Notes: a model not told the origin generated them from the letters alone. Shown: positions 16,530-51,348, counted from the stretch's first letter. The stretch is 64,000 nt of DNA from an uncultured Chloroflexia bacterium (GCA_963712745.1 CAVQJC010000020.1:512001-576000), one strand, 5' to 3'. A program made the numbers and translations.

Positions 16530-20266
<3,737 letters not shown>

Positions 20267-20520: not shown

Positions 20521-21288
20521 GTGACCGGAGAGCCCCTGTACTCGATCGTGGCCAGCCGGGCGGAGGCCCTGATCGCGTCGGGGGAATGGCAGGAAGGCGA
20601 ACGCCTGCCGCCCGAACGTCAACTGTGCCGCGATTTCGACGTCTCCCGCTCGACGCTGCGCCAGGCGCTCGGTGAGCTGGAGGAGCGCGGCCTTATCAGC
20701 CGCCACCAGGGCCGCGGGACGTACGTCACCCGGCCGCGCCTCCAGCTGCCCATCGTCGGCGTCTTCTCCATCAGGGACGCCATGGGAGCACTGGGCATGG
20801 CCATGACCACGCGGGTGCTCGATGTCCAGACGGTCGAGGCTAGCCGCCAGCTCGCGGCCGACCTGGGCTGCCTGCCCGGCGATGACGTCGTCTTCATCGA
20901 GCGGCTCCGCCTTGGTGACGGGGAGCCGATGGTGCTCGACACGGCCCACCTGCCGGCCGCCCTGTTCCCCGGCCTGGCCAAGGTCGACTTCTCACGACGC
21001 TCCCTCTACGAGGTGCTCGCGACCGACTACGGGCGCACCGTGGCCGAGGCCCAGGAGACACTCGAGCCGGTGATCCTGACGCCGCGCGAGTGCGAGCTGC
21101 TGGGCGTCCCGACCCACACGACCGCGTTGCTCACCCGCCGCGTGACCTTCGACGCACATGGCGTCGTGGTCGCGCTCGGTCATGTGCTCCTGCGCGGCGA
21201 TCGTTCTCGCTACATCTACAAGCGCACTGTGGAGACGGCGCCAGCCGCCCCGACCAGCACCATCCCCCTCACGAGGAGATCCCCTTGA
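20521..21288 (+). CDS. GntR-family (HutC/UTRA) transcriptional regulator
   Basis: [24 protein letters not shown] wHTH followed by a UTRA domain (SLYEVL). Confidence 0.93.
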
Positions 21289-22103
21289 CCGCTTCCGATC
21301 GCTGGCTGGCCGCCGCCCGAGATGTGCTCGAGCAGGTGACCACTACCCAGACCCAGGCCATCGAGGAGGCCAGCACGATCTTCGCCGACACCATCGCGGG
21401 CGACAGGCTCGTCCACGTCTTCGGCAGCGGCCACTCGCGTATGAACACCGAGGAGATGTTCCCGCGCATCGGCTCCTATCCGGGCTTCCATCCGGTGGCC
21501 GAGCTGGCGCTCTCCAACCACGTTGGCGTGGTCGGGCCCAACGGCCTGCGACAGGCCATGTATCTCGAGAAGGTGCCCGGCTTCGCCCGCATCATCCTGC
21601 AGCAGTTCAAGATCCACCCAGGCGACTCGTTCCTCATCTTCAGTTCGACCGGCATCAACGGCACCGTCATCGAGCTGGCCCTGCTGGTCAAGGCCATGGG
21701 CCTGGCGGTGGTGGCCGTGACATCACTGCAGCACACCAACGCCACGCCCTCGCGGCATCCCTCGGGCAAGAAGCTGGCCCAGATCGCCGACATCACCATC
21801 GACAACTGCAGCCCGCCCGGCGATGCCGTGGCTGAGATCGAGGGGGTTCCCTTCAAGGTGGGCCCGGTCAGCTCCATCGGCGCCATCGCCGTGGTCAATG
21901 CGCTCAAGTCACGCACCGCGGAGCTGATGGTCGAACGCGGCGTCGTGCCGACCGTCCTCACCAGCCCGCACTTCGAGGGCAGTGCCGTCGGTCCGGAGCA
22001 GCTGGAGAAGGTCTACGAGGAGTACTTCCGCCGGGTCAAGCAGGCCTACGACTCCGAGGGCGCCATCCCCGTGCCCGAGTCGTGGGACGGGACCCCGGCG
22101 TGA
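21285..22103 (+). CDS. SIS-domain sugar-phosphate isomerase
   Basis: VFGSGHS, FSSTGIN, VTS and IDN..GDA motifs; TTG start overlapping the GntR stop, with a GAGGAG SD. Confidence 0.88.
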   Translation: MTASDRWLAAARDVLEQVTTTQTQAIEEASTIFADTIAGDRLVHVFGSGHSRMNTEEMFPRIGSYPGFHPVAELALSNHVGVVGPNGLRQAMYLEKVPGFARIILQQFKIHPGDSFLIFSSTGINGTVIELALLVKAMGLAVVAVTSLQHTNATPSRHPSGKKLAQIADITIDNCSPPGDAVAEIEGVPFKVGPVSSIGAIAVVNALKSRTAELMVERGVVPTVLTSPHFEGSAVGPEQLEKVYEEYFRRVKQAYDSEGAIPVPESWDGTPA

Positions 22104-23449
22104 CGACCGCGGGACTCCGGATCGACCCGCCGCTGGCGGCCGAGGCCGAGGTGGTGGTGGTCGGCTCCGGCAGCGCCGGCTCCGCCGCTGCCATCGCCGC
22201 CGCGCGCACAGGCGCCAGCGTCCTGCTCATCGAGAAGCAGGGCTTCATGGGCGGCACCAGCACCGCGGTCCTGGACACGTTCTACGGCTTCTACACGCCC
22301 GGCAGCGGCTCGCTCAAGGTCGCCGGTGGCGTCTCCGATGAGGTGGTGGCCGGACTGCGCGCGCTGGGCCCGGTCGTGGTCCGGCCCAACACCTACGGTG
22401 CCGGCACCGGAGTCACCTACAACAGCGAGCACCTCAAGCTGGTGTGGGAGCGCCTCGCCACCGAAGCCGGGGTACGTGTGCTGCTGCACGGCTTCCTGCA
22501 GGACGCCATCACCCGCGACGGCCGGGTCACCGAGCTGCTGGTGGCCACCAAGGCCGGGCTCGTGCGCATCGGCGGTCGCGTGTTCGTGGATGCCAGTGGC
22601 GACGCCGACCTGGCCCACCATGCCGGCTTCGGCTATGAACTGGCGGGTACCCAGGAGCCGGCCCAAACGCTGACGACGACCTTCAAGATGGTCAACGTCG
22701 ACATCGCGGCGCGCAAGCTCATCAGTACTGCCGAGATGCACGACCTGATGGGCGAGGCTGCTGATTCGGGCGAGTACGACCTGCCCCGCCGTGAGGGCTC
22801 GGACCACGTCACGCCCATCGAGGGCGTGGTGGCCACGATCATGACGCGCCTGCCCTCGTACCGCGAGGGGGACGGTGGAGTGGTCAACGCCACCGATCCC
22901 GAACTGCTGGCCGAGGCCGAGATCCGCGGCCGCCGCCAGGCGCTCGAGTACGCCCGCTTCCTGCAGCACAAGGTGCCCGGCTACCAGGACGCGTCACTGG
23001 TGGCGCTCTCGACGCAGATCGGCGTGCGCGAGACCCGCCGCGTCTACGGGGACTACCGACTGACCCGTGAGGATGTCCTCGGCGCACGCCGCTTCGACGA
23101 CGAGGTCGGCCTCTGCGGAGCGCCCATCGAGGACCACCACTCCGGCGCCGACACGAAGTGGCAGTACCTGCCCGATGGCGAGGTCGTGGGCATCCCCTAC
23201 CGCACGCTGATCGTTCGCGACTCGGCCAACACCCTCGTCGCCGGCCGCTGCTTCAGCGCCACCCACGACGCCCACGCCTCGGTACGCTCGATGGCCCAGA
23301 CGATGGCCATGGGCCAGGCTGCCGGCACGGCGGCTGCGCAGGCGGTGGCGGCCGGACTCGATCCGCGGGATGTCGACGTGACCGTGCTGCGCGAGCGGCT
23401 GCGGTCCGATGGTGCCGTCCTCGACGTGTCCGCCCAGGCCGGTGTCTGA
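22100..23449 (+). CDS. FAD-dependent oxidoreductase (FAD_oxidored family)
   Basis: VVGSGSAG..AAIAAAR, DASGDAD, GVRETRR, IPYRTL and AGRCFSA motifs. Confidence 0.9.
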   Translation: MTTAGLRIDPPLAAEAEVVVVGSGSAGSAAAIAAARTGASVLLIEKQGFMGGTSTAVLDTFYGFYTPGSGSLKVAGGVSDEVVAGLRALGPVVVRPNTYGAGTGVTYNSEHLKLVWERLATEAGVRVLLHGFLQDAITRDGRVTELLVATKAGLVRIGGRVFVDASGDADLAHHAGFGYELAGTQEPAQTLTTTFKMVNVDIAARKLISTAEMHDLMGEAADSGEYDLPRREGSDHVTPIEGVVATIMTRLPSYREGDGGVVNATDPELLAEAEIRGRRQALEYARFLQHKVPGYQDASLVALSTQIGVRETRRVYGDYRLTREDVLGARRFDDEVGLCGAPIEDHHSGADTKWQYLPDGEVVGIPYRTLIVRDSANTLVAGRCFSATHDAHASVRSMAQTMAMGQAAGTAAAQAVAAGLDPRDVDVTVLRERLRSDGAVLDVSAQAGV

Positions 23450-23465
23450 GGGGTATCGTCGGACC

Positions 23466-24464
23466 ATGGATGAGCGCACCCGGGCGAGCGGCCGCTGGTG
23501 GCTTGGTTTCGACATCGGCGGCACCCGCACCAAGGCCGGCATCGTCAACGACGCGGGCAGGGTGACCGACGCCCACCTCGAGGAGACCGGGCATCGCCAC
23601 TTCGACTACGTCTGGGAGCGCATGCTGGCCTACGCCGACAAGGCCATCGAGTCGGAGGGGCCGAACCTGGCCGGTGTGGGCATCGCCGCCCCCGGCCTGG
23701 TGGAGCCCTCCTTCGGGGTGCGCAACCTGCCGGGCAAGGTCCCGGGCATCGAGGACTTCCCCATGCGCGAGCGGCTCGCAGCGCACCTCGACGTCCCCGT
23801 GCGCTGCGTCAACGACGGCGCTGCGGCCACCCTCGCGGAGTGGGCCTTCGGCGTGGCCCAGGGCTACGACGACGTGGTGGGCCTGACCATCGGCACCGGC
23901 ATCGGCGTGGGTGTCATCATCGGCGGCCGGCCATTGGCCACCAAGAACCTCGCCGGTGGTGTCTCGTTCGGCCACGCCACCATCACCACCGGCGGCCGTA
24001 CCTGCCTCTGCGGCAATATCGGCTGTGCCGAGACGCTGGTCTCGGCCAACGCCGTGGTCGGTCGCATGCGCGACTACGTCGCGCGCAAGGTGCCCTCCAC
24101 CATCACCGAGGCCTACGAGCACGACCCCGGCGCCATCACCTTCCGCACCCTGGTGGAGGGTGTCGATGCCGGCGACCGCGTGGCCAAGGAGATCATGCAG
24201 CAGTACACGCGTGATCTGGGCGCCACCATCGTCACCGCTATCCATGCCTACGACCCCGAGGTCGTCGTCCTCGCTGGCGGGCCCATGGGCCAGGCCGACC
24301 ACTTCGTGCCCCAGGTCCAGGCCTATGTCGACCGCTATGCCTTCCGTTACCCCAAGGAACGCGTCATCCCCATCCTTCGCGCCGAGCGCTCCGACCATGC
24401 CGGGGTCCTCGGTGCCGTCGCCCGTGTCATGCAGTCGGTCGCCGACCACGCCCCCGCGAGGTGA
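23466..24464 (+). CDS. ROK-family sugar kinase
   Basis: DIGGT, ND..A..E, GTGIG and GH..CLCGNIGCAE motifs; no HTH. Confidence 0.92.
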   Translation: MDERTRASGRWWLGFDIGGTRTKAGIVNDAGRVTDAHLEETGHRHFDYVWERMLAYADKAIESEGPNLAGVGIAAPGLVEPSFGVRNLPGKVPGIEDFPMRERLAAHLDVPVRCVNDGAAATLAEWAFGVAQGYDDVVGLTIGTGIGVGVIIGGRPLATKNLAGGVSFGHATITTGGRTCLCGNIGCAETLVSANAVVGRMRDYVARKVPSTITEAYEHDPGAITFRTLVEGVDAGDRVAKEIMQQYTRDLGATIVTAIHAYDPEVVVLAGGPMGQADHFVPQVQAYVDRYAFRYPKERVIPILRAERSDHAGVLGAVARVMQSVADHAPAR

Positions 24465-24498
24465 CCGCCGTCCTCACCCCTAGCCGATAGGAGGCACC

Positions 24499-25458
24499 AT
24501 GCCCTTTGCCCGCACCGTCCTCGGCGACATCGCACCCGAGGAACTCGGCATCGTCTACGCCCATGAGCACCTCGTCATCCACGGGGGGCGCCCTGTCCAG
24601 TTGTTCCCGGACTTCGAGCTGGCCGACGTGGGCAAGGCCGTGGCCGAGCTTGCTCCCGCGCAGGACCTGGGCTTGCGCACGGTCGTCGACGCCATGCCCG
24701 CCGACTGCGGTCGCGACGTGCTCATGCTGGCCCAGATCGCCCGACAAAGCGGGGTCAACGTCATCGCGCCGTCCGGCCTCCATCACGAGCGCTACTACCA
24801 CGACCGCCACTGGTCGGTGCGCCTGGGCGCCGAGGAGATCGCCGACCTCTTCGTGGCCGACATCGAGGACGGCATCGACGAGCTCGACTACAACGGACCC
24901 ATCGTCAAGCGCACCGAGCACAGGGCCGGCGTGATGAAGGTCGCCGGCTCCACCGACGGCCCGTCGGCACGCGACGAGAAGGTCTTCGCCGCTGCCGCCA
25001 TGGCCCAGCGCCGCACGGGTTGCCCCATCCTGACCCACTGCGAGGGCGGCACCGGTGCGCTCGAGCAGGTGGAGCTGCTGGTCAGGCACGGCAGCGACCC
25101 GGCGCACATCGTCCTCTCCCACGTCGACAAGGTGGTCGACCGTGGATACATGCGCGAGATCGCCGCCACCGGTGCCCGCGTCGAATACGACCAGGGCTTC
25201 CGCTGGGGGGAGGCCGAGAACGGCACCCTGCAGTTGCTCGAGTGGGCGGCTGAAGACGGCCTGCTCGGCCACATCACGCTGGGGCTCGATGCGGCCCGAC
25301 AGGGGTATTGGATCCAGTTCGGGGGCGCGCCCGGCTGGACCTACCTGCTGGGGGAGTTCGCCGGTCTCATGCGTGAGCGCGGGCTCGGCGACGCCGAGCT
25401 GCATAGCCTGTTCGTCGAGGCACCGGGAGGTGCCTACACCTTCGGAGAGCCAGCATGA
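24499..25458 (+). CDS. Phosphotriesterase-related amidohydrolase/lactonase
   Basis: HEH, K of GVMKVA, THC, SHVD and D metal ligands. Confidence 0.9.
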   Translation: MPFARTVLGDIAPEELGIVYAHEHLVIHGGRPVQLFPDFELADVGKAVAELAPAQDLGLRTVVDAMPADCGRDVLMLAQIARQSGVNVIAPSGLHHERYYHDRHWSVRLGAEEIADLFVADIEDGIDELDYNGPIVKRTEHRAGVMKVAGSTDGPSARDEKVFAAAAMAQRRTGCPILTHCEGGTGALEQVELLVRHGSDPAHIVLSHVDKVVDRGYMREIAATGARVEYDQGFRWGEAENGTLQLLEWAAEDGLLGHITLGLDAARQGYWIQFGGAPGWTYLLGEFAGLMRERGLGDAELHSLFVEAPGGAYTFGEPA

Positions 25459-26615
25459 CACCGCGTGAACGGATCCTGGCCGCGCTCGACCACCGCGAGT
25501 CCGACCGCATCCCCATCGACATGGGCAGCTCCATCGTGACCTCCATCACCCGGGCTGCCTATGAACCTCTGCGCGAGTACCTGGGCTTGCCGGCCGAGGA
25601 GGTCGTCGTCTACGACGAGGTGCAGCAGCTGCCCTACGTGGGTGAGGATGTGCTCACCCGTTTCGGCGTCGACACGCGCATGGTCCAGCTGCCGCCCACG
25701 CACGTGAAGGGCGTGGAGATCGTGGACGAGGGCGACTACTGGGCGATGTGGGATCGCTGGGGCGCGAAGATGCGCATGCCCAAGGACAAGCCCCTCTACT
25801 ACGACTGGGTCGAGTTCCCCATCAACGACATGGAGCTCTCCACGCTGGAGTCCTACCGGTGGCCCGAGCCCGACCCGCCCGAGCTCATCGCCGACCTTGG
25901 CACCAGGGCCCAGGAGCTGCGCGCGACGACCGACTACGCCCTGATCGGCTCGGGCGTCATCGGGGGCGGCATCTTCGAGCAGTCCTGCCGGGTCATGGGC
26001 ATGGAGCCGTTCATGATGTCGATGCTCATGGAGCCGCCATTCGCGAACAAGCTGGCCGATCGCATCACCGATATCTACATCGAGTCGGTCGACCGCTATC
26101 TCGGCCAGGTGGGCGAGCTCATCGACGTCTTCACCTTCTGGGACGACGTGGCCACGCAGCAGGGCTGGATGATCAATCCCGACTCCTACGTCGAGGTCAT
26201 CAAGCCGCGTCAGAAGCGCCTCTTCGCTGCTATCAAGGAGCGCACCGAGGCCAAGATCTTCTATCACGGCTGCGGCGCGGTCTACGAGCTCATCCCGCAC
26301 CTCATCGAGATCGGGGTGGACATCATCAACCCGGTGCAGGTCAGCGCCGAGGGCATGGACTCCGCCCGCTTGAAGAAGGCCTACGGGGACGACATCGTCT
26401 TCTGGGGCGGCGGCGTGGACACGCAGAAGGTGCTGCCCTTCGGCACGCCGCAGGAAGTGCGTGACGAGGTCAAGCGCCGCATCGACGACTTCGCCCCCGG
26501 TGGCGGTTTCGTCTTCGCCACCGTGCACAACATCCAGGCCTACGTGCCGCCGCAGAACATCGAGGCTGCCTTCGACACGGCCCTGACCTACGGTGCCAGT
26601 CCCGCCGCGGTCTAG
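25455..26615 (+). CDS. UroD/MtaA-CmuA-family methyltransferase-like protein #1
   Basis: MTPRER..DRIPID, DRWG, FYHGCG, NPVQ, FWGGGVDTQ and HNIQ motifs. Confidence 0.88.
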   Translation: MTPRERILAALDHRESDRIPIDMGSSIVTSITRAAYEPLREYLGLPAEEVVVYDEVQQLPYVGEDVLTRFGVDTRMVQLPPTHVKGVEIVDEGDYWAMWDRWGAKMRMPKDKPLYYDWVEFPINDMELSTLESYRWPEPDPPELIADLGTRAQELRATTDYALIGSGVIGGGIFEQSCRVMGMEPFMMSMLMEPPFANKLADRITDIYIESVDRYLGQVGELIDVFTFWDDVATQQGWMINPDSYVEVIKPRQKRLFAAIKERTEAKIFYHGCGAVYELIPHLIEIGVDIINPVQVSAEGMDSARLKKAYGDDIVFWGGGVDTQKVLPFGTPQEVRDEVKRRIDDFAPGGGFVFATVHNIQAYVPPQNIEAAFDTALTYGASPAAV

Positions 26616-30009: not shown

Positions 30010-30092
30010 CCCCGGGCGGCCCCCGTCCGGCAGTCCTTCGGCACTGGTGCCACGCGGCCCTGTTGCCCGAGCCTTGGAACACGGGAGGGGCC

Positions 30093-33030: not shown

Positions 33031-33046
33031 GTCCAGAGGGGACTCC

Positions 33047-34468: not shown

Positions 34469-34480
34469 GCTGGGGGGCTC

Positions 34481-39677: not shown

Positions 39678-40306
39678 CTAGGCCAGCAGTTCCTGGGCCA
39701 CGTTGGCCGCGGTGGCGGCGTCCTTGGCGAAGCCGTCAGCGCCGATCTCGGCAGCGAACTCGTCGGTCACCGGCGCCCCGCCGACCATGATCTTGGCGTT
39801 GGGGTCGGCCGCACGGATGGCATCGATGGCGGCCTTCATGCCCACCATGGTCGTGGTCAGCAGCGCGCTGATGCCGACGATACTGGCGCCGTGCTCGACC
39901 GTGGCCTCGGCGAAGGCCTCGGGGCTGACACGTTGGTGCCCAGGTCGACGATCTCGAAGTTGGAGCCCTTGAGCATCATGCCCACGAGGTTCTTGCCGAT
40001 GTCGTGGAGATCACCCTGCACCGTGCCGATGACGGCGGTGTGCTCGGGCTTGATACCCGAGGCGGCCAGCAGCGGCTCGAGCAGCGCACTGGCTTCCTTC
40101 ATGGCGTGGGCGCTGATGAGCATCTCGGGCACGTACACGCCCTCGTTGCAGGCGAACTTGCGGCCGACCTCGGTCATGGCCTCGGTCATGGCGTCGAGGA
40201 TGACGTTGGGGTCGACGCCCTCGTCGATGGCAGCCTGGGTCAGGCTCACCGCGTCGGCGCGGTTGCCGGCCTCGACGGCGGCGGTCAGGGCGGCTAGGTC
40301 AGCCAT
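39678..40306 (-). pseudogene. Methyltransferase cognate corrinoid protein, frameshifted by a GT duplication near 39930 (probably a sequencing error)
   Basis: VPEML..A.AM and GTVQGDLHDIGKNLV (DxHxxG). Removing 2 nt restores GTNVSPEAF..SALLTTTM..VGGAPVT..GADGFA. Confidence 0.85.
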
Positions 40307-44329: not shown

Positions 44330-45343
44330 CTACTGCGAGCAGTTGGCCAGGGATTCAGGGGTGAAGATATCGGTGTACGTCGTGGGGTCCACGATCGAGG
44401 TGGGAGCGATGGTGAAGGCCGGCAGATCAACGCCGTTGACGACGTTCTCGTACAGGACCTCGGCAGCCGACGCTCCGACGTCCAGGCCGGAGATGTACAG
44501 CGCAGCCTTGAACCCGCTGGGCTGATCGGCAGCCCAGAACTTGCAGGCCTCGTAGGCCCCAAGGCCGACGCCCAGGATGTTGTCGGGTGAGACGCCCTGC
44601 GTGGCGAGCGCGTTCAGGACGGCGAGAACGCCTTCGTCATTGCAGGCGAAGACGACCCAGTGGGTCACGTCGGGATGGGCGGTGATGACGGGGCCGGCCT
44701 TGTCCTGCGCATCGGGTGACTCGCCCGTGTACTGGACCTGGAAGATCGACTCGGCCGGAACGCCGACATCGAGCATGGCCTGCTTGGACGCGTTGGTGCG
44801 ATCCTCGCAGACGGACAGCGTCGGGACCTCGGTCGACAGGACGCCGAGGGTGATCGCCTCGTCCTCGAGCCAGCCACCTTCGGTCAGCAGGCGCGCGGCC
44901 TCTGCGCCCACCTTGGCGCCCATGTCGGGGCCGCTGAAGCCCACGAAGGGGACGGGGTTCCCAGCGGAATCCACGATGCTATCGTCGGTCGCCACGAGGG
45001 CGACGCCGGCCGCCGCGGCGGCGTCCGAGATAGCCGGGCCGATGGTCTGGTCGGGCACGGTGATGGCGATGCCGGCCGCGCCGGCGGAGATGGCGTCGTT
45101 CACGAGGTTGACACCCAGGCTCGGATCGAGCTTGGCGTCGGCCTTGAGTGACGTGGCGCCGAGCTCGGCGGCCTTGGCTTCGAACGAATTCTGCAGGTCG
45201 ATGAAGTACTGCTGGTCTGCGCTCTTGTTGATGACGTAAAGCAGCGGGGCCTCGTCCTGCGCGACCGCCGGCAGGGCGGAAGCGGTCAGGAGCGCGGCGC
45301 CACCCAGGGCGACCAGGGTCTTCTTGAAGCGAGAGTCAACCAC
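44330..45343 (-). CDS. Sugar ABC substrate-binding protein (AraF-like)
   Basis: Signal peptide ending AVA|QDE; INKS..YF, ATDD, R and CNDEG motifs. GTG 45343 has the better-spaced SD (alternative start 45358). Confidence 0.88.
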   Translation of the reverse strand: MVDSRFKKTLVALGGAALLTASALPAVAQDEAPLLYVINKSADQQYFIDLQNSFEAKAAELGATSLKADAKLDPSLGVNLVNDAISAGAAGIAITVPDQTIGPAISDAAAAAGVALVATDDSIVDSAGNPVPFVGFSGPDMGAKVGAEAARLLTEGGWLEDEAITLGVLSTEVPTLSVCEDRTNASKQAMLDVGVPAESIFQVQYTGESPDAQDKAGPVITAHPDVTHWVVFACNDEGVLAVLNALATQGVSPDNILGVGLGAYEACKFWAADQPSGFKAALYISGLDVGASAAEVLYENVVNGVDLPAFTIAPTSIVDPTTYTDIFTPESLANCSQ

Positions 45344-45494
45344 GAGCGATTCCTCCATTCCTCCGAAAGGGTTGGCTGGGACGTGTCGATGTTACCTGTT
45401 TCCAACACGAAACAACACGTTCTCTGGCAGATTACGTCCGAAGGTGCCCTCCTTCTGTTTCGACGGCGCGCTGTCCCTTCTCACCGGCCGCCTG

Positions 45495-45649: not shown

Positions 45650-48600
45650 ATGGAGCAGACCCCGCTGCGACTGCCCGAGCGGCCCCGGCACCTGCGCGAC
45701 CGCGACGTCGCCGCCTGGTCCGAGCCGGTGGTCATCGACACGTATCCGACGCCCGCGCCCGACCGCAATCCACTCTTCCTCGAGAACCGCGTGTACCAGG
45801 GCTCGTCTGGTCGGGTCTATCCCAACCCTGTCACCGACCGCGTCTCGGATATGGCGGTGCCCACGTCCTGGGAGGCGGTCCACCTCGAGAACGAGTACCT
45901 GCGCGTGATGATCCTGCCCCAGATCGGCGGCCGCATCCACGTGGTCCAGGACCGCCAGACCGGCTACGACGTCTTCTACCGCCAGAACGTCATCAAGCCG
46001 GCCCTGGTGGGGCTGCTGGGTCCGTGGATCTCCGGCGGCGTCGAGTTCAACTGGCCCCAGCATCACAGGCCTTCCACCTTCATGCCGACCGACTACGAGA
46101 TCGAGTCGCTGCCCGACGGCGGGGCCGTGGCGTGGTGCTCCGAGCACGAGCCCACCGATCGCATGAAGGGTATGCACGGCGTGGTCCTGCGGCCCGCCTC
46201 GTCGGTGCTGGAGCTGGCGGTCAGGCTGGGCAACCGGACCCCGCTGGTGCAGACGTTCCTGTGGTGGGCCAATGCGGCGGTGCGCGTGCACGACGACTAC
46301 GAGGCCTACTTCCCCCCGGACGTGACCTACGTGGCTGACCATGCGCGGCGCGCGATGTCTACGTTCCCTTGCGCTGAGGGCCGCTACTACGGCGTCGACT
46401 ACGGGTCGCGCCCTGCGCGCGATGCGGACCTGCGCTGGTACCGCAACATCCCTGTGCCTACGTCCTACATGGCCATGGGCACGGCGGCGGACTTCTTCGG
46501 CGGCTACGACCACGCTGCAGGCGAGGGCTTCGTCCACTGGGCCGACCACACCATCAGCCCGGGCAAGAAGCTGTGGACCTGGGGCAACCACGAGTTCGGC
46601 TACGCCTGGGACCGTGAGCTGACCGACCAGGATGGTCCCTACGTCGAGCTCATGGCGGGCGTGTTCACCGACAACCAGCCCGACTTCGGGTTCCTGCTTC
46701 CGGGCGAGGTGCGCACGTTCAGCCAGTACTGGTATCCGCTCGTCGGCACCGGGCCGGTACAGGCGGCCAACCTCGACGCCGCCGTGCGCCTCTCACGAGG
46801 GGCCGGCGTCGCCCATATCGGCGTGGCGGTGACGCGCCCGCGCGACGGGGCCACCGTGCGCCTCACCGAGCGGGGTCGGCCGATCTTCGAGCGCACCGTG
46901 GACCTTGCCCCAGGATCACCGTTCCTGGCCGGGGACATCGCGCTCGGCGAAGGCGCCAGGACGGCCGAGCTGCACCTGGCCGTGCTCCACGACGGGAGGG
47001 AGCTCATCAGCTACCAGCCCGCAGTGCGGCGTCGGGGCGATCCGCCTCCACCGGCTACCGAGCCGCCGCCGCCGGCCGAGGTCGAGACGCTCGAGGAGCT
47101 GTGGCTCACGGGCATGCACCTGCAGCAGTACCGCCACGCCACGCGCCGGCCAGAGGCCTACTACCGCGAAGCTCTGCGGCGGGACCCAGGCGACAGCCGC
47201 AGCAACACGGCCATGGGCGAGTGGCACCTACGCCACGGCGAGTACGCCCAGGCGGAGCAGCATCTGCGGGCAGCGCTGGAGCGACTGTCGGTGCGCAACG
47301 CCAACCCGCGGGACGGCGAGGCCAGCTACCTGCTGGGCGTGACACTGCGACTGGCCGGGCGCCCTGGCGAGGCGGACGAGGCCTTCGGCAAGGCCGGCTG
47401 GAACGGCGCGTTCGGAGCAGCATCCGATATCGCGCGGGCGGAGATCGCCTCGGCGCGAGGGGACACTGGCGCGGCCATGGCCCTGCTCGAGCGAGCGCTC
47501 CGCTCCAACGGCGCCGAACCCGGAGCCCTCGGCCTGCGAGCCGCTCTCCTGCGGCGCGGGGGTCGAACGACCGACGCGCGCGAGGCTGTGGCTTCGATGC
47601 TGGCCGCCGATCCGCTCGACATCCGCGCACTCCATGAGCGCGCCCTGCTCGATGGGGCCGATGGCCCGTTGCCGGGCGGTGCCCAGGCCGCCCTCGACAT
47701 CGCCCATGACGAGGCCCGCGCGGGGCTGCTCGAAGAGGCAGTCGATGCCCTGGAGCGCGCCATCGAGGCCGGCCCCGGCCCCGGGCACGCGCCACTGCTG
47801 CACTACACGCTGGCCTGGCTCGAAGCGCAGCGCGGGGACCATGCGGCAGCTTCACGCGAGCTGCGACTGGCGCGGAAGGTTGCTCCCGACTACGCCATGC
47901 CGGCCCGCCTCGAAGAGATCGCCGTGCTCGAGTGGGCCATCGGGCAAGATCCGTCCGACGCACACGCCCCCTACTACCTGGGCAACCTGCTCTACGACAA
48001 GCGGCGCTATCACGACGCCATCGCCGCCTGGCGACGCGCGGCCCGGCTGGACCCGGACTTCGCGACCGTGCACCGGAACCTGGGCATCGCCGAAACCAAC
48101 GTGCTCCACCGGCCGGAAAGGGCGCTGAGCGAGTATCGCAAGGCCTACCGGGCCGATCCAAGCGACGCCCGAGTGCTCTACGAGCTCGACCAGCTGCGAA
48201 AACGTCTGGGGCACGACCCTTGGGCCAGGCTGCGAGGGTTGGAGGCGGCGCTTGACGTCGTCGACGAGCGTGATGACCTCACCGTCGAGTTCGTGACCCT
48301 GCTCAACCTCGCCGGTCGCCACGGTGAAGCCGCCGAGATCCTCTGCGAGCGACGCTTCCACCCCTGGGAAGGCGGCGAGGGCCTGGTCTCGGAGCAGTGG
48401 GTCGTGGCACGGCGAGAACGCGCCCGTGCGCTCAGGGAGTCGGGCCAGCCCGCGCTCGCCGCCGAGCTCCTGCGCCTGGCCATGGTCTATCCGCCGAACC
48501 TCGGCGAGGGCAAGCACCTGCTGACGCCGGAGAACGAGCTGCAGTACCTGCTCGGTGAGTGTCTTCGCGATGCTGGCGAATGGGACGAAGCGAACGCATG

Positions 48601-48979
48601 GTTCCGGCGGGCGGCCCAACTGCAGGGCGACCCGGGTGCGCCCGCGGGCGACGGCCCCTACTGGCAGGCGCTGGCCCTGCGCGCCCTGGGTGATGACGTT
48701 GCGGCCGAATCACGCTTGACCGCGCTGGCCGATGCTGCCGCCGCGCAGGCGCGAACCGAGGTCACCATCCCCTATTTCGCCACGTCGCTGCCCACGTTGC
48801 TGCTGTTCGACGACGACCTCTCCGAGCGGGCCCACCAGGAGGCGGCCTACCTCGAAGGACTGGCGCTGATGGGCCGGGGCCAGACGAAGGCCGCCGCCAG
48901 CCGCTTCCGGGCGCTGCTCGCAGCCCGTCCCGACCATCTTGATGCCGCCCTGCGCCTCGCCGAGCTCGAGCGAGGCTGA
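45650..48979 (+). CDS. DUF5107/TPR protein (YphG-like)
   Basis: RVYQGSSGRVYP, LENEYL, IKPALVGLLGPWISGGVEFNWPQHH, GKKLWTWG, TPR array and FHPWEGGEG. Confidence 0.88.
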   Translation: MEQTPLRLPERPRHLRDRDVAAWSEPVVIDTYPTPAPDRNPLFLENRVYQGSSGRVYPNPVTDRVSDMAVPTSWEAVHLENEYLRVMILPQIGGRIHVVQDRQTGYDVFYRQNVIKPALVGLLGPWISGGVEFNWPQHHRPSTFMPTDYEIESLPDGGAVAWCSEHEPTDRMKGMHGVVLRPASSVLELAVRLGNRTPLVQTFLWWANAAVRVHDDYEAYFPPDVTYVADHARRAMSTFPCAEGRYYGVDYGSRPARDADLRWYRNIPVPTSYMAMGTAADFFGGYDHAAGEGFVHWADHTISPGKKLWTWGNHEFGYAWDRELTDQDGPYVELMAGVFTDNQPDFGFLLPGEVRTFSQYWYPLVGTGPVQAANLDAAVRLSRGAGVAHIGVAVTRPRDGATVRLTERGRPIFERTVDLAPGSPFLAGDIALGEGARTAELHLAVLHDGRELISYQPAVRRRGDPPPPATEPPPPAEVETLEELWLTGMHLQQYRHATRRPEAYYREALRRDPGDSRSNTAMGEWHLRHGEYAQAEQHLRAALERLSVRNANPRDGEASYLLGVTLRLAGRPGEADEAFGKAGWNGAFGAASDIARAEIASARGDTGAAMALLERALRSNGAEPGALGLRAALLRRGGRTTDAREAVASMLAADPLDIRALHERALLDGADGPLPGGAQAALDIAHDEARAGLLEEAVDALERAIEAGPGPGHAPLLHYTLAWLEAQRGDHAAASRELRLARKVAPDYAMPARLEEIAVLEWAIGQDPSDAHAPYYLGNLLYDKRRYHDAIAAWRRAARLDPDFATVHRNLGIAETNVLHRPERALSEYRKAYRADPSDARVLYELDQLRKRLGHDPWARLRGLEAALDVVDERDDLTVEFVTLLNLAGRHGEAAEILCERRFHPWEGGEGLVSEQWVVARRERARALRESGQPALAAELLRLAMVYPPNLGEGKHLLTPENELQYLLGECLRDAGEWDEANAWFRRAAQLQGDPGAPAGDGPYWQALALRALGDDVAAESRLTALADAAAAQARTEVTIPYFATSLPTLLLFDDDLSERAHQEAAYLEGLALMGRGQTKAAASRFRALLAARPDHLDAALRLAELERG

Positions 48980-49035: not shown

Positions 49036-49683
49036 ATGGACAGCATCCTCGAACGGATCGCACAGGCCGGAGTCGTCCCGGTCGTCGTCATCGACGACCC
49101 TGCGGACGCGTCGGCGCTGGTGGGCGCGCTGGCCGAGGGGGGCCTGCCCCTGGCCGAGATCACATTCCGCACGGCCGCCGCCGAGGATGCCATCCGGGCC
49201 GCGGTCGCAGATCACCCCGACGTGCTCGTGGGAGCCGGCTCCGTGCTGTCGCTCGAGCAGGTCGATGCCGCAGTCGCAGCCGGCGCCAGCTTCGTGGTCA
49301 GCCCCGGTCTCGAGGAGAACGTGGTGCGTCGCACCCTTGACCACGGCGTCCTGGCGCTGCCCGGCTGTGCCACCGCCAGCGACCTCATGCGCGCGCGCCT
49401 GCTGGGGCTGGACGTGGTCAAGTTCTTCCCGGCCGAGCCGAGCGGCGGACTGCCCATGATCAAGGCCGTGGCGGCGCCATTCCCGGGCCTGCGCTTCGTT
49501 CCCACCGGCGGAGTCAACACCACCAATCTCGAGGAGTACCTGGCCGACCCGCGCATCCTCGCGGTGGGCGGCTCGTGGATGGTCAAGCCGGCCATGATCA
49601 AGGCCAGGGACTGGACCGGCATCACCGCCGCTGCTCGCGCGGCAGTGGCAGCCGTGCGCCGGGCACGCAGCGGCCGCGCATAG
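49036..49683 (+). CDS. eda: KDPG/KHG aldolase
   Basis: EITFR, GAGSV, VSPG, KFFPA and PTGGV motifs. Confidence 0.92.
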   Translation: MDSILERIAQAGVVPVVVIDDPADASALVGALAEGGLPLAEITFRTAAAEDAIRAAVADHPDVLVGAGSVLSLEQVDAAVAAGASFVVSPGLEENVVRRTLDHGVLALPGCATASDLMRARLLGLDVVKFFPAEPSGGLPMIKAVAAPFPGLRFVPTGGVNTTNLEEYLADPRILAVGGSWMVKPAMIKARDWTGITAAARAAVAAVRRARSGRA

Positions 49684-49734
49684 GCTCTGCCCGGGCGGAC
49701 GCCTCCGCCGCAGCGCGGCACGAAGCCGACAGGC

Positions 49735-50367
49735 CTAGCGAGCCACCGAGGCCGTCACCTGACGCGCCCGCTCGGTCACTCCAGCCGGGTCGCCGTCGCC
49801 GATGAGCCAGCCGCCCATGCCCACGGCCACTGCTCCTGCAGCGATCCAGTCACCGGCCGTCTCTGCAGAGACGCCACCGGTGGGCACGAACGGGATACCC
49901 GGGAACGGCCCTGAGATCTGCTTGAGGTAGGCGGTGCCGACGGCGGCAGCGGGAAACAGCTTCACCGCGCTCGCCCCAGCCGACCAGGCAGCATGGATCT
50001 CCGTCGGCGACAAGGCTCCCGGGAAACATGGCACGGCATTGAGCGCACACCAGGTGATGAGCTCGGTGTCGGTGTGGGGTGAGACGATGAATCTCGCACC
50101 GGCGTCGACCGCTCGCTTGGCCGCTCCGATCGAGAGCACCGTGCCCGCCCCCACCAGGGCATCAAGATCGTCGGCCACGCCTGCGAGTGCCTCGATCGCC
50201 CGCAGCGCGTCCTGCTCGGGCTCGTTCAGCGTCAGCTCCATGACGTGGACGCCACCGGCTAGCAGCGATTCGCCGATGCGGGGAGCGGCGGCGGCGGCGA
50301 TATTGCGCCCGATGGCGATGACCCTGCTGTCACTGACGAGCTCGGGGATCGGCGGACGGTCGGTCAT
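49735..50367 (-). CDS. Second KDPG/KDPGal-type aldolase
   Basis: ELTLN, GAGTV, VSPH, SPTE, KLFPA and PTGGV motifs; ATG 50367. Confidence 0.88.
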   Translation of the reverse strand: MTDRPPIPELVSDSRVIAIGRNIAAAAAPRIGESLLAGGVHVMELTLNEPEQDALRAIEALAGVADDLDALVGAGTVLSIGAAKRAVDAGARFIVSPHTDTELITWCALNAVPCFPGALSPTEIHAAWSAGASAVKLFPAAAVGTAYLKQISGPFPGIPFVPTGGVSAETAGDWIAAGAVAVGMGGWLIGDGDPAGVTERARQVTASVAR

Positions 50368-50462
50368 GTCGGCTCCGGGTCTCGGAGGTGTTCGGTGAAT
50401 GGCACCATCGTGCCAGAGAAGGCCCACACCAGCGCGCGACCCGACCCGCACCGGAGGACGAC

Positions 50463-51348
50463 ATGCCCCCACGTACGCTTCCCGCTCCTCAGGATCCTCT
50501 ACCAGCACGATGCCTTGGTGGGCGAGGGGCCCGTGTGGGATCCGCGCATCGGCAGGCTCGTCTGGGTCGACATCCCCAACAACCAGGTCTTCACCACCGA
50601 CCCCAACACCGGTCAGACCGCGAGCCGGCAGTTGGACCGCGCGGTCGGCGTGGTCCTGCCGCGCGCCTCGGGCGGCTACGTGGCGGCCCTGCAGGACGGC
50701 TTCTACACGCTGCCTGACGAAGGCGAGCCCGAGCTCATCGCGCCGGTCGAGGCAGACGACCCCACCACCCGCCTGAACGACGGTGAGACCGACCCGCAAG
50801 GCCGCTTCTGGGCCGGCACGATGGGCTGGCAGGCGGAGCCGGAGGCAGGCACGCTCTACCGCCTCGATCCCGACGGCACGGTCAGCCGCATGGTCGATGG
50901 CATCACCATCAGCAACGGTCTCGGCTGGAGCCCCGAAGGCACGACGATGTACTACGTCGACACCCCTACCCTGCGGGTCGACATGTTCGACTACGACCCG
51001 GCCAGCGGCGACATCACCAACCGGCGGGAGTTCGTGACCATCCGCCACGGCGGCGGCAGGCCCGACGGCCTGACGGTCGACAGCGAGGGTGCCGTGTGGG
51101 TCGCGACCTGGCCCGGCTACGGCGTCCACCGCTACCTGCCTGACGGCTCGCTCGACGCGGTCATCCCGCTGCCGGTCTCCAACGTCTCGAGCATCGAACT
51201 GGGCGGGCCCGACCTGCGCGACGCCTTCATCACCACCGCCTGGGAGCTGCTTTCCGAGGAGGAGCACGCGGCCCAGCCGCTGGCCGGCAGCCTCTTCCAC
51301 ACTCGGGTCGATGTGCCTGGGCGGCCACGCGTGCCGTTCGCGGGCTGA
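50463..51348 (+). CDS. SMP-30/gluconolactonase-family sugar lactonase (apparent +1 frameshift near 50490)
   Basis: GEGPVWD, RLNDG..GRFWAGTM, SNGLGWSP and PDGLTVD motifs. The GGAGG-ATG start at 50463 is one base out of frame with the domain. Confidence 0.85.

What the first reader, a model, noticed from the sequence alone, without database searches (positions are those of the whole stretch)
20521..51348. Candidate cobalamin-dependent O-methyl-sugar demethylation and catabolism system
Seen: one minus-strand run encodes an AraF/G/H-like importer, a mutarotase-like protein, a corrinoid protein and a UroD/MtaA-like protein. A plus-strand run encodes GntR, SIS isomerase, FAD oxidoreductase, ROK kinase, a lactonase-like PTE and another UroD/MtaA-like protein. 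Three more UroD-like paralogs, a DUF5107/TPR protein, two Eda aldolases and an SMP-30 lactonase complete the locus, and metH is divergent. There are no heme genes. Established: UroD/MtaA-fold Zn proteins with a cognate corrinoid protein perform methyl transfer in methanogens and acetogens. Inference: methylated sugars (e.g. from plant, algal or microbial glycans) are imported and demethylated onto the corrinoid, and the sugar enters an Entner-Doudoroff-like route. No THF-methyltransferase or RACo activator is visible here, so MetH is a candidate methyl sink. I know of no characterised B12-dependent sugar O-demethylase pathway of this layout.
Basis: partly seen in the sequence, partly recalled or inferred. 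Interest (0 to 1): 0.82.

Follow-up and report, generated by a model that had tools for sequence, protein, structure and literature searches.

The report
Likely B12-dependent sugar demethylase locus
A sugar-import operon of an uncultured Chloroflexota bacterium carries a vitamin-B12 carrier protein and unusual methyl-transfer enzymes that probably strip methyl groups from sugars without oxygen, a gene pattern found in many phyla but never tested at the bench.

Summary
It missed a six-gene NAD-linked [NiFe] hydrogenase operon (32491-37975), an EamA transporter and a second frameshift.

The conserved core is one minus-strand operon: sugar-binding protein, ATPase, permease, mutarotase-like protein, MtaC-type corrinoid protein and UroD4.
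- UroD4 relatives at 62-91% identity occur in many phyla. A corrinoid protein lies in 22 of the 80 best loci and a CUT2 sugar ABC permease in 36.
- All 27 UroD4-positive genomes of a 300-genome class sample also carry the corrinoid activator RACo. So do 5 of 5 distant genomes tested.
- The parts missing from the window lie elsewhere in this genome: a second RACo inside an arabinose-type sugar locus, and pterin-binding methyltransferase, MTHFR, FolD and FTHFS in a Wood-Ljungdahl cluster. In one relative they sit directly beside the UroD1 and UroD4 orthologues.
- Both frameshifts are absent from the two same-genus genomes and from independent contigs, so the corrinoid gene is probably not dead.

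Corrinoid-dependent methyl transfer is well supported. A methylated sugar as donor rests on gene context only. MetH as methyl sink and an Entner-Doudoroff exit are not supported by conserved linkage. I found no paper describing such a system.

The parts
44330..45358 (-). Periplasmic sugar-binding protein (Peripla_BP_4) of a CUT2-type ABC importer; first gene of the core operon
   Evidence: Pfam PF13407 E 6e-22. NCBIfam gives only weak RbsB and rhizopine-SBP hits, far below their cut-offs. Orthologues lie in 9 of 80 related loci.
42660..44249 (-). Double-domain ABC ATPase, AraG/XylG/RbsA-like
   Evidence: PF00005 matched twice. The AraG equivalog scores 588.8 bits against a cut-off of 689, so the protein is not assigned to arabinose.
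41491..42663 (-). BPD_transp_2 permease, AraH/RbsC-like
   Evidence: PF02653 E 9e-44. AraH scores 196.6 bits against a cut-off of 378.
40478..41422 (-). Mutarotase-like protein of about 314 aa with no Pfam match
   Evidence: No Pfam or NCBIfam hit. Nearest atlas clusters carry Aldose_epim, DUF4432 or DUF5107 on 10-22% of members, scores 0.97-0.98. Homologues lie in 9 of 80 related loci.
39678..40306 (-). MtaC-type corrinoid protein (B12-binding_2 cap plus B12-binding Rossmann domain, GDLHDIG motif), interrupted in this assembly by a 2-nt insertion near 39928
   Evidence: The two halves match B12-binding profile positions 3-38 and 38-119. The motif is read. The gene is in frame in G263 and G242. 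Contigs of runs X1 and X2 lack the 2 nt.
38531..39649 (-). UroD4: UroD/MtaA-fold protein and candidate substrate:corrinoid methyltransferase (MT I), with H265-x-D267-G and H349
   Evidence: PF01208 E 1e-27. MtaA 4ay7 is the best PDB match. The AF2 model has pLDDT 90.9. A complex model with the corrinoid protein scores 0.78 against 0.00 for the best control. 503 relatives were confirmed in species genomes.
32491..37975 (-). HoxE, HoxF, HoxU, HoxY, HoxH and maturation protease: a NAD-linked bidirectional-type [NiFe] hydrogenase operon directly downstream of UroD4
   Evidence: Pfam and NCBIfam scans; HoxU scores 362.8 bits, above its cut-off of 333. The position is kept in G263 and G242. HoxH lies in 7 of 80 related loci.
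31256..32456 (+). UroD3 (H-N-C-G motif), with one extra C near 31904 in this assembly
   Evidence: The C-terminal part hits PF01208 at E 2e-12. The intact G263 orthologue hits at E 9e-20. Alignment. Contigs of X1 and of RNA library X20 lack the base.
30063..31259 (+). UroD2 (H-Y-C-G motif, different C-terminus)
   Evidence: PF01208 E 6e-22; motif alignment.
28173..29156 (+). EamA-family transporter
   Evidence: PF00892 E 5e-26. It follows UroD1 in G263 and G242.
26612..27910 (-). 432-aa very divergent UroD-like protein; absent at this place in G263 and G242
   Evidence: URO-D hit below threshold, E 0.0024. Atlas lead. Three paralogues in the genome, one next to a corrinoid protein in an inositol-type locus and one next to a UroD-like gene. 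A single-sequence fold failed.
20521..26615 (+). GntR/UTRA, SIS_2, FAD_oxidored (PF12831), ROK kinase, PTE-family lactonase-like protein and UroD1 (H-G-C-G ... H-N)
   Evidence: The whole run is kept in G242. In G263, UroD1 follows FGGY, FBP aldolase and HAD instead. A similar SIS_2, ROK, GntR, UroD set recurs in L007. UroD1-type ORFs number 16 within the 80 UroD4-centred loci.
45650..48979 (+). DUF5107 plus TPR protein, divergent from the importer operon
   Evidence: PF17128 E 1e-54. Present in 6 of 80 related loci.
49036..51348 (.). Eda (49036-49683, +), second Eda (49735-50367, -) and SMP-30/SGL lactonase-like protein (50395-51348, +). These are neighbours whose link to the core is not conserved.
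   Evidence: Eda is in 1 and SGL in 2 of 80 related loci.
16526..20488 (-). MetH, five domains. It is a neighbour and not a conserved part.
   Evidence: MetH is in 0 of 80 related loci. It sits beside a Cys_Met_Meta_PP gene.

Best explanation
The conserved core is the operon from the binding protein to UroD4. I read it as an import-and-demethylate module.

1. A CUT2-type ABC importer takes up a methylated monosaccharide.
2. UroD4 is a TIM-barrel enzyme of the UroD/MtaA superfamily. It holds the substrate at the C-terminal face of its barrel.
3. The Co(I) corrinoid on the adjacent MtaC-type carrier protein attacks the methyl carbon. This yields methyl-Co(III) and the free sugar. H265, D267 and H349 are candidate metal or acid-base residues.
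4. A pterin-binding methyltransferase encoded in the Wood-Ljungdahl cluster on contig C11 passes the methyl group to tetrahydrofolate. From there it is oxidised or built into acetyl-CoA.
5. A second RACo-type activator, encoded inside another sugar locus, re-reduces oxidised corrinoid.
6. UroD1, UroD2, UroD3 and the 432-aa protein are probably further methyltransferases with other sugar or position specificities.

Shown here: gene content, conserved linkage, genome-level co-occurrence with RACo, the fold, and a model that supports UroD4-carrier docking. Inferred: the chemistry, the identity of the substrate, and the route of the methyl group.
For: 1. The carrier protein has the canonical parts: B12-binding_2, B12-binding and GDLHDIG.
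2. It lies within 400 nt of a UroD4 orthologue for 17 of 79 orthologue ORFs. It is in 22 of 80 related loci, and in 13 of the 40 loci of at least 18 kb.
3. The complex model scores 0.78 and the best of 3 controls 0.00. That mark was reached by 58 of 80 solved complexes and 2 of 110 mismatched pairs. The runs share at least 77% of contacts and the partner's pLDDT is at least 81. Because I used my own alignments, these counts hold only roughly.
4. RACo rings in only 1 of 14 control genomes. It is present in 27 of 27 UroD4-positive genomes of the class sample and in 46 of the 273 others. It is also present in 5 of 5 Acidobacteriota and Planctomycetota genomes whose UroD4 locus lacks a carrier.
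5. In G038 the UroD1 and UroD4 orthologues sit with DUF1638, a corrinoid protein, Pterin_bind, MTHFR and RACo.
6. The sugar link in the 80 loci: BPD_transp_2 in 36, ABC ATPases in 28 and 15, Peripla_BP_4 in 25 and 6, LacI in 15, FGGY in 13, class II aldolase in 13, a fucose-isomerase C-terminal domain in 10, GalK in 8.
7. In G182 the pair lies between araB, araA, an ABC importer and araD on one side and galK and galT on the other.
8. In the window's own genome, RACo2 lies beside LacI, AraA and a CUT2 importer.
9. By my reading of the Pfam tables, UroD-like genes lie in sugar loci in 11 of the 13 further loci annotated.
10. Six of 18 UroD positions lie within 6 kb of a CUT2 permease, against 6.7% of random genome positions.
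11. The fold is closest to MtaA, with TM-scores of 0.68 and 0.74.
Against: - No substrate was tested, and the binding protein matches no characterised equivalog.
- 58 of the 80 related loci show no carrier within the fetched DNA, and 40 of the 80 are shorter than 18 kb.
- Pterin_bind lies near UroD4 in only 2 of 80 loci and RACo in only 1.
- The MtaA zinc motif H-x-C...C is not kept. H349 aligns with the G-H-G histidine of true uroporphyrinogen decarboxylases, so a metal site is unproven.
- Related genomes are not independent, and RACo is common in the family as a whole (67 of 91 genomes).
- A pass in the complex model may reflect likeness to solved methyltransferase-carrier complexes.
- In this assembly the carrier gene and UroD3 are out of frame.
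Confidence: 0.5

Rival explanations
1. The UroD-like proteins and the carrier do form a corrinoid methyltransferase system, but the methyl donor is not an O-methyl sugar. It could be an S-methyl or methylthio sugar, an O-methyl cyclitol such as pinitol, a methoxylated aglycone of a glycoside, or a small methyl compound. On this view the link with sugar operons reflects co-regulation or a shared source material.
For: - Kountz and Balskus propose methyl-sulfur or methyl-selenium chemistry for multi-Mlp clusters that lack a THF methyltransferase (PMC10418091, Results part 1).
- A corrinoid protein and a paralogue of the 432-aa protein lie in an inositol-type (IolB, IolD) locus of this genome.
- The class II aldolase and kinase neighbours would also fit a deoxy-sugar or thio-sugar shunt. 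That shunt is recalled, not tested here.
Against: - The conserved neighbours are CUT2 monosaccharide importers with isomerase, kinase and aldolase sets of the arabinose, fucose and galactose kind.
- UroD4 lacks the cysteine ligands that MtaA uses for thiol chemistry.
- Cyclitols are close kin of sugars, so that sub-case differs little from the main reading.
Confidence: 0.25
2. On this view the whole 31-kb stretch is one pathway in which the sugar leaves by an Entner-Doudoroff-like route through the lactonases and two Eda aldolases, and MetH takes the methyl group.
For: All these genes are adjacent in the window. MetH is still beside GntR in G242. A shared cobalamin module for demethylation and methionine synthesis exists in marine bacteria (PMC12478193, abstract).
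Against: - MetH is in 0 of the 80 related loci, Eda in 1 and SGL in 2.
- MetH has methionine-pathway neighbours of its own.
- G263 lacks the GntR-to-PTE run.
- A THF and Wood-Ljungdahl route is encoded in the genome, and in G038 it is linked to the orthologues.
Confidence: 0.1
3. The sugar-locus UroD-like proteins are corrinoid-independent sugar enzymes, for example decarboxylases or isomerases on a TIM barrel. On this view the carrier adjacency in a minority of loci is incidental.
For: - 58 of 80 loci show no carrier.
- H349 aligns with a histidine of true decarboxylases.
- The proteins are far below the NCBIfam cut-offs for MtaA/CmuA.
Against: - RACo is a rare gene (1 of 14 control genomes) yet is present in 27 of 27 and 5 of 5 UroD4-carrying genomes.
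- The carrier gene, where present, is immediately adjacent on the same strand.
- The complex model passes its controls.
- RACo2 lies in a sugar locus.
Confidence: 0.08
4. The module is decaying in this organism. On this view the carrier gene and UroD3 are true pseudogenes.
For: Both genes are out of frame in the assembly.
Against: - Both are in frame in G263, and the carrier also in G242.
- At 39928, X1 contigs lack the 2 nt at depth 6.5 of 6.5, and X2 contigs at 7.18 of 21.8.
- At 31904, X1 lacks the base at 5.3 of 7.7, and X20 at 3.29 of 3.29.
- Several other genes of this assembly are split in the same way.
Confidence: 0.05

Closest known systems
Three-component corrinoid O-demethylases of anaerobes (Odm, Vdm, Mtv, Mto): MT I of the UroD superfamily, a corrinoid protein, a pterin-binding MT II and a RACo-type activator
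   Same: It has a UroD-superfamily protein next to an MtaC-type carrier. Pterin_bind, MTHFR and RACo lie in the genome and, in G038, in the same cluster. The genome holds a Wood-Ljungdahl cluster. That MT I enzymes of this superfamily demethylate methoxylated aromatics is taken from passages of PMC13222342 and PMC10418091.
   Different: Here the genes are embedded in monosaccharide import and catabolism operons, not aromatic ones. MT II and the activator are usually unlinked (2 and 1 of 80 loci). In sequence the family lies nearer MtaA (E 8e-18) than CdmB (E 0.014), the one solved MT I of that branch. I did not compare it with OdmB, VdmB, MtvB or MtoB, because I held no sequences for them.
MtaA/MtbA methylcobamide:coenzyme M methyltransferases (PDB 4ay7 and 4ay8)
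   Same: They are the best sequence and fold matches, and they work on a methylated MtaC-type carrier.
   Different: The H-x-C...C motif is replaced by H-x-D...H in UroD4 and H-x-C...H in UroD1. Scores are far below the NCBIfam cut-offs: 72.8 bits against 235.4. The window's organism belongs to the bacterial phylum Chloroflexota, and I found no coenzyme M context.
Type 1 mlp gene clusters (Kountz and Balskus, PMC10418091)
   Same: Both have several MtaA-like UroD paralogues around one corrinoid protein and no THF methyltransferase in the cluster. Tandems of UROD-UROD-UROD-CORR are seen here too.
   Different: Those clusters carry a Ram/RACE gene, are reported only from obligate anaerobes (73% Firmicutes), and are proposed for methyl-sulfur or methyl-selenium metabolism. 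The words sugar and carbohydrate do not occur in that text. I did not test orthology to Mlp1-3.
CdmBCA chloromethane methyltransferase system (PMC13222342; PDB 9rui)
   Same: Both combine a UroD-fold MT I, a carrier and an MT II. That paper notes uncharacterised MT I clades with unknown substrates (passages).
   Different: By that paper's description, CdmB has a hydrophobic, metal-free cavity. The UroD4 family's invariant residues are largely polar or charged (R6, D17, R18, D223, D224, Q228, K243, H265, N286, Q289, H349, N359). Sequence likeness is marginal.
Cytochrome P450 carbohydrate demethylase (PMC6292453; search listing and start of abstract only)
   Same: It would achieve the same net result, removing an O-methyl group so that the sugar can be metabolised.
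   Different: It uses oxygen-dependent oxidative chemistry and an unrelated protein family. Two UroD-like loci of this genome also hold P450 genes.

Membership tests
Corrinoid-dependent three-component methyltransferase system (MT I, carrier, MT II, activator) | A UroD-superfamily MT I gene adjacent to its corrinoid protein gene | tested here: met
   UroD4 lies 29 nt downstream of the carrier gene. The adjacency is kept in G263 and G242 and for 17 of 79 orthologue ORFs in other genomes.
Corrinoid-dependent three-component methyltransferase system (MT I, carrier, MT II, activator) | A carrier with a B12-binding_2 cap, a B12-binding Rossmann domain and a D-x-H-x-x-G motif | tested here: met
   G-D-L-H-D-I-G-K is invariant in 14 of 14 aligned carriers. 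The window copy carries a 2-nt insertion that relatives and independent contigs lack.
Corrinoid-dependent three-component methyltransferase system (MT I, carrier, MT II, activator) | A pterin-binding methyl-corrinoid:THF methyltransferase (MT II) | tested here: inconclusive
   None lies in the window apart from the MetH domain. Two stand-alone Pterin_bind genes lie on C11 in the Wood-Ljungdahl cluster, one beside two UroD-like genes and a carrier. One is adjacent in G038. Only 2 of 80 related loci have one.
Corrinoid-dependent three-component methyltransferase system (MT I, carrier, MT II, activator) | A RACo/RamA-type reductive activator | tested here: inconclusive
   None lies in the window. 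The genome has two: one in the CODH/ACS cluster and one beside LacI, AraA and a CUT2 importer. Co-occurrence is 27 of 27 and 5 of 5 genomes. RACo is near UroD4 in 1 of 80 loci.
Corrinoid-dependent three-component methyltransferase system (MT I, carrier, MT II, activator) | Substrate-dependent methylation of the Co(I) carrier | not testable with these tools
   This needs anaerobic enzymology.
MtaA/CmuA family (methylcobamide:CoM methyltransferases) | Score above the family cut-off, and the H-x-C-x(n)-C zinc motif (motif recalled, then located in the 4ay7 alignment) | tested here: not met
   TIGR01463 scores 72.8, 59.1, 52.0 and 42.4 bits against a cut-off of 235.4. UroD4 has H-T-D-G and P-T-H-H where 4ay7 has H-I-C-G and P-G-C-G. 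Three other paralogues of the genome (L018, L019, L004) do keep H-x-C...C.
HemE, true uroporphyrinogen decarboxylase | Score above the hemE equivalog cut-off, and heme-pathway neighbours | tested here: not met
   TIGR01464 is hit only by UroD2, at 20 bits against a cut-off of 302.95. No heme gene appeared among the scanned window ORFs.
Type 1 mlp gene cluster | Mlp2 and Mlp3 orthologues, a corrinoid protein and Ram/RACE in one cluster | tested here: inconclusive
   Several UroD paralogues and a carrier are present, but there is no RACE gene in the window. I did not test orthology to Mlp2 and Mlp3, having no reference sequences.
Hox-type NAD-linked bidirectional [NiFe] hydrogenase | HoxE, F, U, Y and H subunits plus an endopeptidase in one operon | tested here: met
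   The HoxU equivalog scores 362.8 bits, above 333. HoxE scores 215, just under 224. A NuoF-like subunit, the small and large subunits and a protease are all present.
AraFGH L-arabinose ABC importer | Equivalog-level match of the three components | tested here: not met
   AraG scores 588.8 against 689 and AraH 196.6 against 378. The binding protein has no AraF match. It belongs to the CUT2 family, but its specificity is unassigned.
Aldose 1-epimerase (for the mutarotase-like gene) | A Pfam Aldose_epim match or a demonstrated fold | tested here: inconclusive
   There is no Pfam hit at E up to 5. The atlas neighbours carry Aldose_epim, DUF4432 or DUF5107 on only 10-22% of members. I did not fold it.

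The most novel reading that the evidence does not exclude
A multi-phylum family of UroD-fold enzymes with a His/Asp(Cys)/His site in place of MtaA's His/Cys/Cys works with MtaC-type carriers as oxygen-independent, B12-dependent O-demethylases of methylated monosaccharides. The sugar-borne methyl groups would go into tetrahydrofolate and the Wood-Ljungdahl pathway. In this genus the module is additionally wired to a NAD-linked Hox hydrogenase, which would vent methyl-derived reductant as H2. This would be a carbohydrate counterpart of aromatic methoxydotrophy.
Probability: 0.4. Interest if true: 0.85.

Novelty: new variant of a known kind. Interest (0 to 1): 0.78.

Why it matters
Methyl ethers block the normal breakdown of many plant, algal and microbial sugars. 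The only carbohydrate demethylase I met in the literature searches is an oxygen-dependent P450.

A B12-dependent route would explain how anoxic sediments, soils and guts deal with methylated sugars. It would add a new class of methyl donors to C1 metabolism, acetogenesis and, indirectly, methane budgets. It would also assign a function to a large UroD-like family that genome pipelines currently label uroporphyrinogen decarboxylase.

The family is directly testable, because the protein pair is small, soluble and adjacent.

Tried and rejected
- A single-sequence AlphaFold model of the 432-aa protein was useless (pLDDT 36.3).
The 4-sequence alignment A2 worked.
- The first Pfam scan of the remaining window ORFs failed on a wrong frame. 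I repeated it with corrected coordinates.
- No Rfam family, and so no cobalamin riboswitch, reaches threshold in the window.
- The promoter and terminator scan of 37800-46000 gave nothing above the shuffles.
- I expected one UroD subtype to sit tightly next to galactokinase. Only 2 of 11 such ORFs lie within 400 nt of GalK, so I dropped the idea.
- RNA-library run X20 yields contigs with 0-1 mismatches on UroD3, UroD4 and HoxF. Contigs from an RNA library cannot show transcription, and parts without cover say nothing.
- The notes look-up around this place returned nothing.
- Five literature searches found no paper on corrinoid-dependent demethylation of sugars or cyclitols in the held library.
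- I did not resolve the chemistry of the GntR, SIS, FAD-oxidoreductase, ROK and PTE run.

Full report
ANATOMY

The window is about 69% G+C. I therefore called genes by third-position GC bias and scanned them against Pfam and NCBIfam.

The region breaks into several transcription units.
- A plus-strand run: GntR/UTRA, SIS_2, FAD_oxidored, ROK, PTE and UroD1 (20521-26615).
- A lone minus-strand 432-aa gene (26612-27910).
- EamA (28173-29156).
- UroD2 and UroD3 (30063-32456, plus strand).
- A minus-strand run: binding protein, ATPase, permease, mutarotase-like protein, corrinoid protein and UroD4 (45358 down to 38531).
- After a gap of 555 nt, HoxE, F, U, Y, H and a protease (37975 down to 32491).
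- A divergent DUF5107-TPR gene, then two convergent Eda genes and SGL.

MetH (16526-20488) is divergent from GntR. On its other side it adjoins a Cys/Met PLP enzyme.

THE TWO FRAMESHIFTS

The corrinoid gene (39678-40306) reads MADLAAL...GDLHDIGKN...DLGTNV and then changes frame. Its two halves match B12-binding profile positions 3-38 and 38-119. Against the same-genus genomes G263 and G242 the window has two extra bases, GT. UroD3 has one extra C in a C run near 31904.

Both genes are in frame in G263, and the carrier also in G242. Contigs from public runs were laid on the stretch.
- At 39928, the 2 nt are missing in X1 at depth 6.5 of 6.5 (2 contigs), and in X2 at 7.18 of 21.8.
- At 31904, the extra base is missing in X1 at 5.3 of 7.7.
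- In RNA library X20 it is missing at 3.29 of 3.29, on a 315-nt contig with one other difference.

X1 may be the window's own sample, and the contigs may come from close strains. Other genes of this assembly are split in the same way.

WHAT THE UroD-LIKE PROTEINS ARE

All four score far below the NCBIfam cut-offs for MtaA/CmuA, and hemE is essentially not hit.

The best solved relative of UroD4 is MtaA 4ay7. The single sequence gives E 4e-7 and a 47-sequence profile gives 7.6e-18. True decarboxylases follow, and CdmB 9rui is marginal at 0.014.

An AlphaFold model built with that alignment has pLDDT 90.9. Its best Foldseek matches are 4ay8 and 4ay7 (TM-scores 0.68 and 0.74, 18% identity), then decarboxylases, then MetE.

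Where MtaA has H-I-C-G and P-G-C-G, UroD4 has H-T-D-G and P-T-H-H. H265, G268 and H349 are invariant and D267 is at least 90% conserved across 47 sequences. In the 19 URO-D proteins of this genome, most sugar-locus paralogues carry H-x-(C/D)-G and a later His. Three others (L018, L019, L004) keep the MtaA-type H-x-C...C. H349 also aligns with the G-H-G histidine of real decarboxylases, so a metal site is only a hypothesis.

A complex model of the G263 UroD4 with its carrier supports binding.
- The score is 0.78 and the best of 3 controls is 0.00.
- That mark was reached by 58 of 80 solved complexes and 2 of 110 mismatched pairs.
- The runs share at least 77% of contacts, and the partner's pLDDT is at least 81.
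- I used my own alignments, so the counts hold only roughly.
- Contacts fall on UroD4 179-188 and 227-237, just after the invariant D223, D224 and Q228. On the carrier they fall on 54-67, 103 and 106.
- The pass may reflect likeness to solved methyltransferase-carrier complexes.

THE MISSING PARTS ARE ELSEWHERE IN THE GENOME

The genome (4.2 Mb, 20 contigs, 84.55% complete) has 22 URO-D matches, which I count as 20 genes. Including the window's, it has five MtaC-type carriers with both domains, in L003, L004, L011, L015 and the window.

Contig C11 carries a Wood-Ljungdahl cluster in this order:
- CooC, CODH, ACS, both CoFeSP subunits, a full RACo, DUF3786;
- Pterin_bind, MTHFR, FTHFS, FolD, a second Pterin_bind, a second MTHFR;
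- then two UroD-like genes and a carrier.

A second, lower-scoring RACo lies beside LacI, L-arabinose isomerase, a Peripla_BP_4 binding protein and two CUT2 permeases. The organism has both, and one activator gene sits in a sugar locus.

RELATIVES

In a 300-genome sample of the class, UroD4-like matches (E up to 1e-20) occur in 27 of 91 genomes of the window's family. They occur in 0 of 209 genomes of the other families.

- G263 and G242 (same genus) keep the importer, mutarotase-like gene, carrier, UroD4 and Hox order, and the divergent DUF5107 gene. G242 also keeps the run from GntR to EamA. G263 has FGGY, FBP aldolase and HAD before UroD1. Neither has the 432-aa gene there.
- In G038 the orthologues form UroD1, DUF1638, UroD4 (broken by TGA codons), a corrinoid protein, Pterin_bind, MTHFR, RACo and ArsR.
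- In G182 they lie between araB, araA, a CUT2 importer and araD on one side and a glycyl-radical enzyme, galK, galT and another UroD-like gene on the other.

The best 80 are 62-91% identical. Their record titles name Chloroflexota, Acidobacteriota, Spirochaetota, Planctomycetota, Verrucomicrobiota, Bacteroidota, Latescibacterota, Proteobacteria and Bacillota. The closest are labelled Candidatus Limnocylindrales or uncultured Chloroflexia.

I clustered all ORFs of these 80 loci and scanned cluster representatives against Pfam. Half the loci are under 18 kb, so these counts are lower bounds.

| Neighbour | Loci of 80 |
|---|---|
| BPD_transp_2 permease | 36 |
| short ABC ATPase | 28 |
| double ABC ATPase | 15 |
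| Peripla_BP_4 | 25 and 6 |
| corrinoid protein | 21 |
| LacI | 15 |
| further divergent UroD-like family with F-H-V-D-G | 14 |
| FGGY kinase | 13 |
| class II aldolase | 13 |
| fucose-isomerase C-terminal domain | 10 |
| GalK | 8 |
| mutarotase-like | 8 |
| HoxH | 7 |
| DUF5107 | 6 |

By tblastn the counts are: carrier 22 of 80 (13 of the 40 long loci), Pterin_bind 2, RACo 1, MTHFR 1, MetH 0, Eda 1, SGL 2. Seventeen of 79 UroD4 orthologue ORFs lie within 400 nt of a carrier, and 16 UroD1-type ORFs travel in these loci.

GENOME-LEVEL CO-OCCURRENCE

RACo rings in 1 of 14 control genomes. In the class sample it is in 74 of 301 genomes, including G000 and one unpublished genome, G296. All 27 UroD4-positive genomes have it, against 46 of the 273 others.

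I partitioned the rows by E-value. The lower-scoring grade (about 1e-58 to 1e-73) is the grade of the G038 cluster and of the window genome's second RACo. It is in 25 of the 27 UroD4-positive genomes and in 6 of the 273 others. In G098, G245, G188, G053 and G038 it lies within about 6 kb of a UroD4-like match. Related genomes are not independent, so no probability is attached.

I also tested five distant genomes whose UroD4 locus shows no carrier (three Acidobacteriota, two Planctomycetota). All five have RACo and small carrier-sized ORFs, and in four of them RACo lies 2-5 kb from such an ORF.

WITHIN THE GENOME

By my reading of the Pfam tables, UroD-like genes sit among sugar transport or catabolism genes in 11 of the 13 further loci annotated. 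The exceptions are L010 and L012.
- L005 is a rhamnose-type locus.
- L006 has a galactokinase.
- L003 has a lactonase, a dehydratase and an aldolase together with a carrier.
- L007 repeats the SIS, ROK, GntR set.
- L008 and L009 hold P450 genes.

As a stricter control, 6 of 18 UroD positions lie within 6 kb of one of 29 CUT2 permease genes, against 6.7% of random genome positions. The four window positions are not independent of one another.

MECHANISM

Shown here:
- gene content;
- conserved adjacency of importer, carrier and UroD4;
- genome-level coupling to RACo;
- the MtaA-like fold;
- a docking model that passes its controls.

Inferred: an imported methylated monosaccharide is bound by UroD4. 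Carrier-bound Co(I) takes the methyl group. A pterin-binding enzyme passes it to THF and the Wood-Ljungdahl pathway. RACo2 repairs oxidised cofactor, and the freed sugar enters ordinary catabolism. The paralogues would widen the substrate range.

The Hox operon is linked only in the close relatives (7 of 80 loci). Its role as an outlet for methyl-derived NADH is speculation.

I cannot name the sugar. Neighbours point to the arabinose, fucose and galactose kinds. One carrier sits in an inositol-type locus, which suggests O-methyl cyclitols as a further substrate class.

LITERATURE

- Five searches found no paper on corrinoid-dependent demethylation of sugars.
- The nearest is the preprint on type 1 mlp clusters (PMC10418091). 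I read its abstract, Results part 1 and term passages. It does not mention sugars.
- The Cdm paper (PMC13222342; passages only) places aromatic O-demethylases and haloalkane methyltransferases in the UroD superfamily. It notes clades with unknown substrates.
- PMC12478193 (abstract) shows a carrier shared between betaine demethylation and methionine synthesis. That keeps the MetH idea conceivable but unsupported here.
- Supplements were closed and may list related clades.

Two earlier notes of this scan describe similar loci in other genomes. They agree with this reading but are not independent evidence.

Noticed in passing
window 32491-37975 (-): A complete HoxE-F-U-Y-H plus protease NAD-linked [NiFe] hydrogenase operon lies directly downstream of UroD4. 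The position is kept in the two same-genus genomes, and HoxH lies in 7 of 80 related loci.
   Followed up: partly
L138:7239-8858 (G000 C11:318238-319857): A second RACo-type corrinoid activator, without the N-terminal ferredoxin domain, lies beside LacI, L-arabinose isomerase, a sugar-binding protein and two CUT2 permeases.
   Followed up: partly
L015:7341-9354 (G000 contig C4): A corrinoid protein and a paralogue of the window's 432-aa protein sit inside an inositol-type locus (IolB/KduI, TPP enzyme, GFO/IDH/MocA, xylose-isomerase-like barrels, LacI, sugar ABC). O-methyl-inositols such as pinitol may be a substrate class.
   Followed up: no
L008:7006-9580 and L009:5089-9089 (G000 contig C11): Cytochrome P450 genes lie next to UroD-like genes in two sugar loci. 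The only carbohydrate demethylase I met in the literature is a P450, so both chemistries may be present.
   Followed up: no
L001:8802-16042 and L054:11208-16547: A PFL-like glycyl-radical enzyme with its activase lies next to UroD-like genes in the window's own genome and in G182.
   Followed up: no
L010:8720-9676 (G000 contig C11): One ORF combines the C-terminal half of a URO-D domain with a B12-binding match. It sits beside FTHFS and a NAD-type formate dehydrogenase, and may be a fusion or an assembly artefact.
   Followed up: no
L018:8217-9263, L019:8712-9758, L004:8185-9003: The two best full-length URO-D matches of the genome, and the one next to the L004 carrier, keep the MtaA-type H-x-C-G...G-C motif. 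I identified no clear hemE.
   Followed up: partly
L004, L011, L016, L017, L010/L011: Many genes of this assembly are split by apparent frameshifts, for example a UroD in L004, a UroD in L011 and chorismate synthase in L016. Some segments look duplicated: FTHFS gives identical scores in L010 and L011, and L016 and L017 share their gene order. This suggests indel errors or redundancy in the assembly.
   Followed up: no
L014:8677-10147 and L056:16989-17738: DUF1638 genes lie next to corrinoid proteins in the window's own genome and in G038. DUF1638 is in 3 of 80 related loci.
   Followed up: no
L098:8831-9952 and 13 other loci: A 373-aa family with no Pfam match but an F-H-V-D-G motif lies next to UroD4 orthologues in 14 of 80 loci. 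It is probably another very divergent UroD-fold protein.
   Followed up: partly
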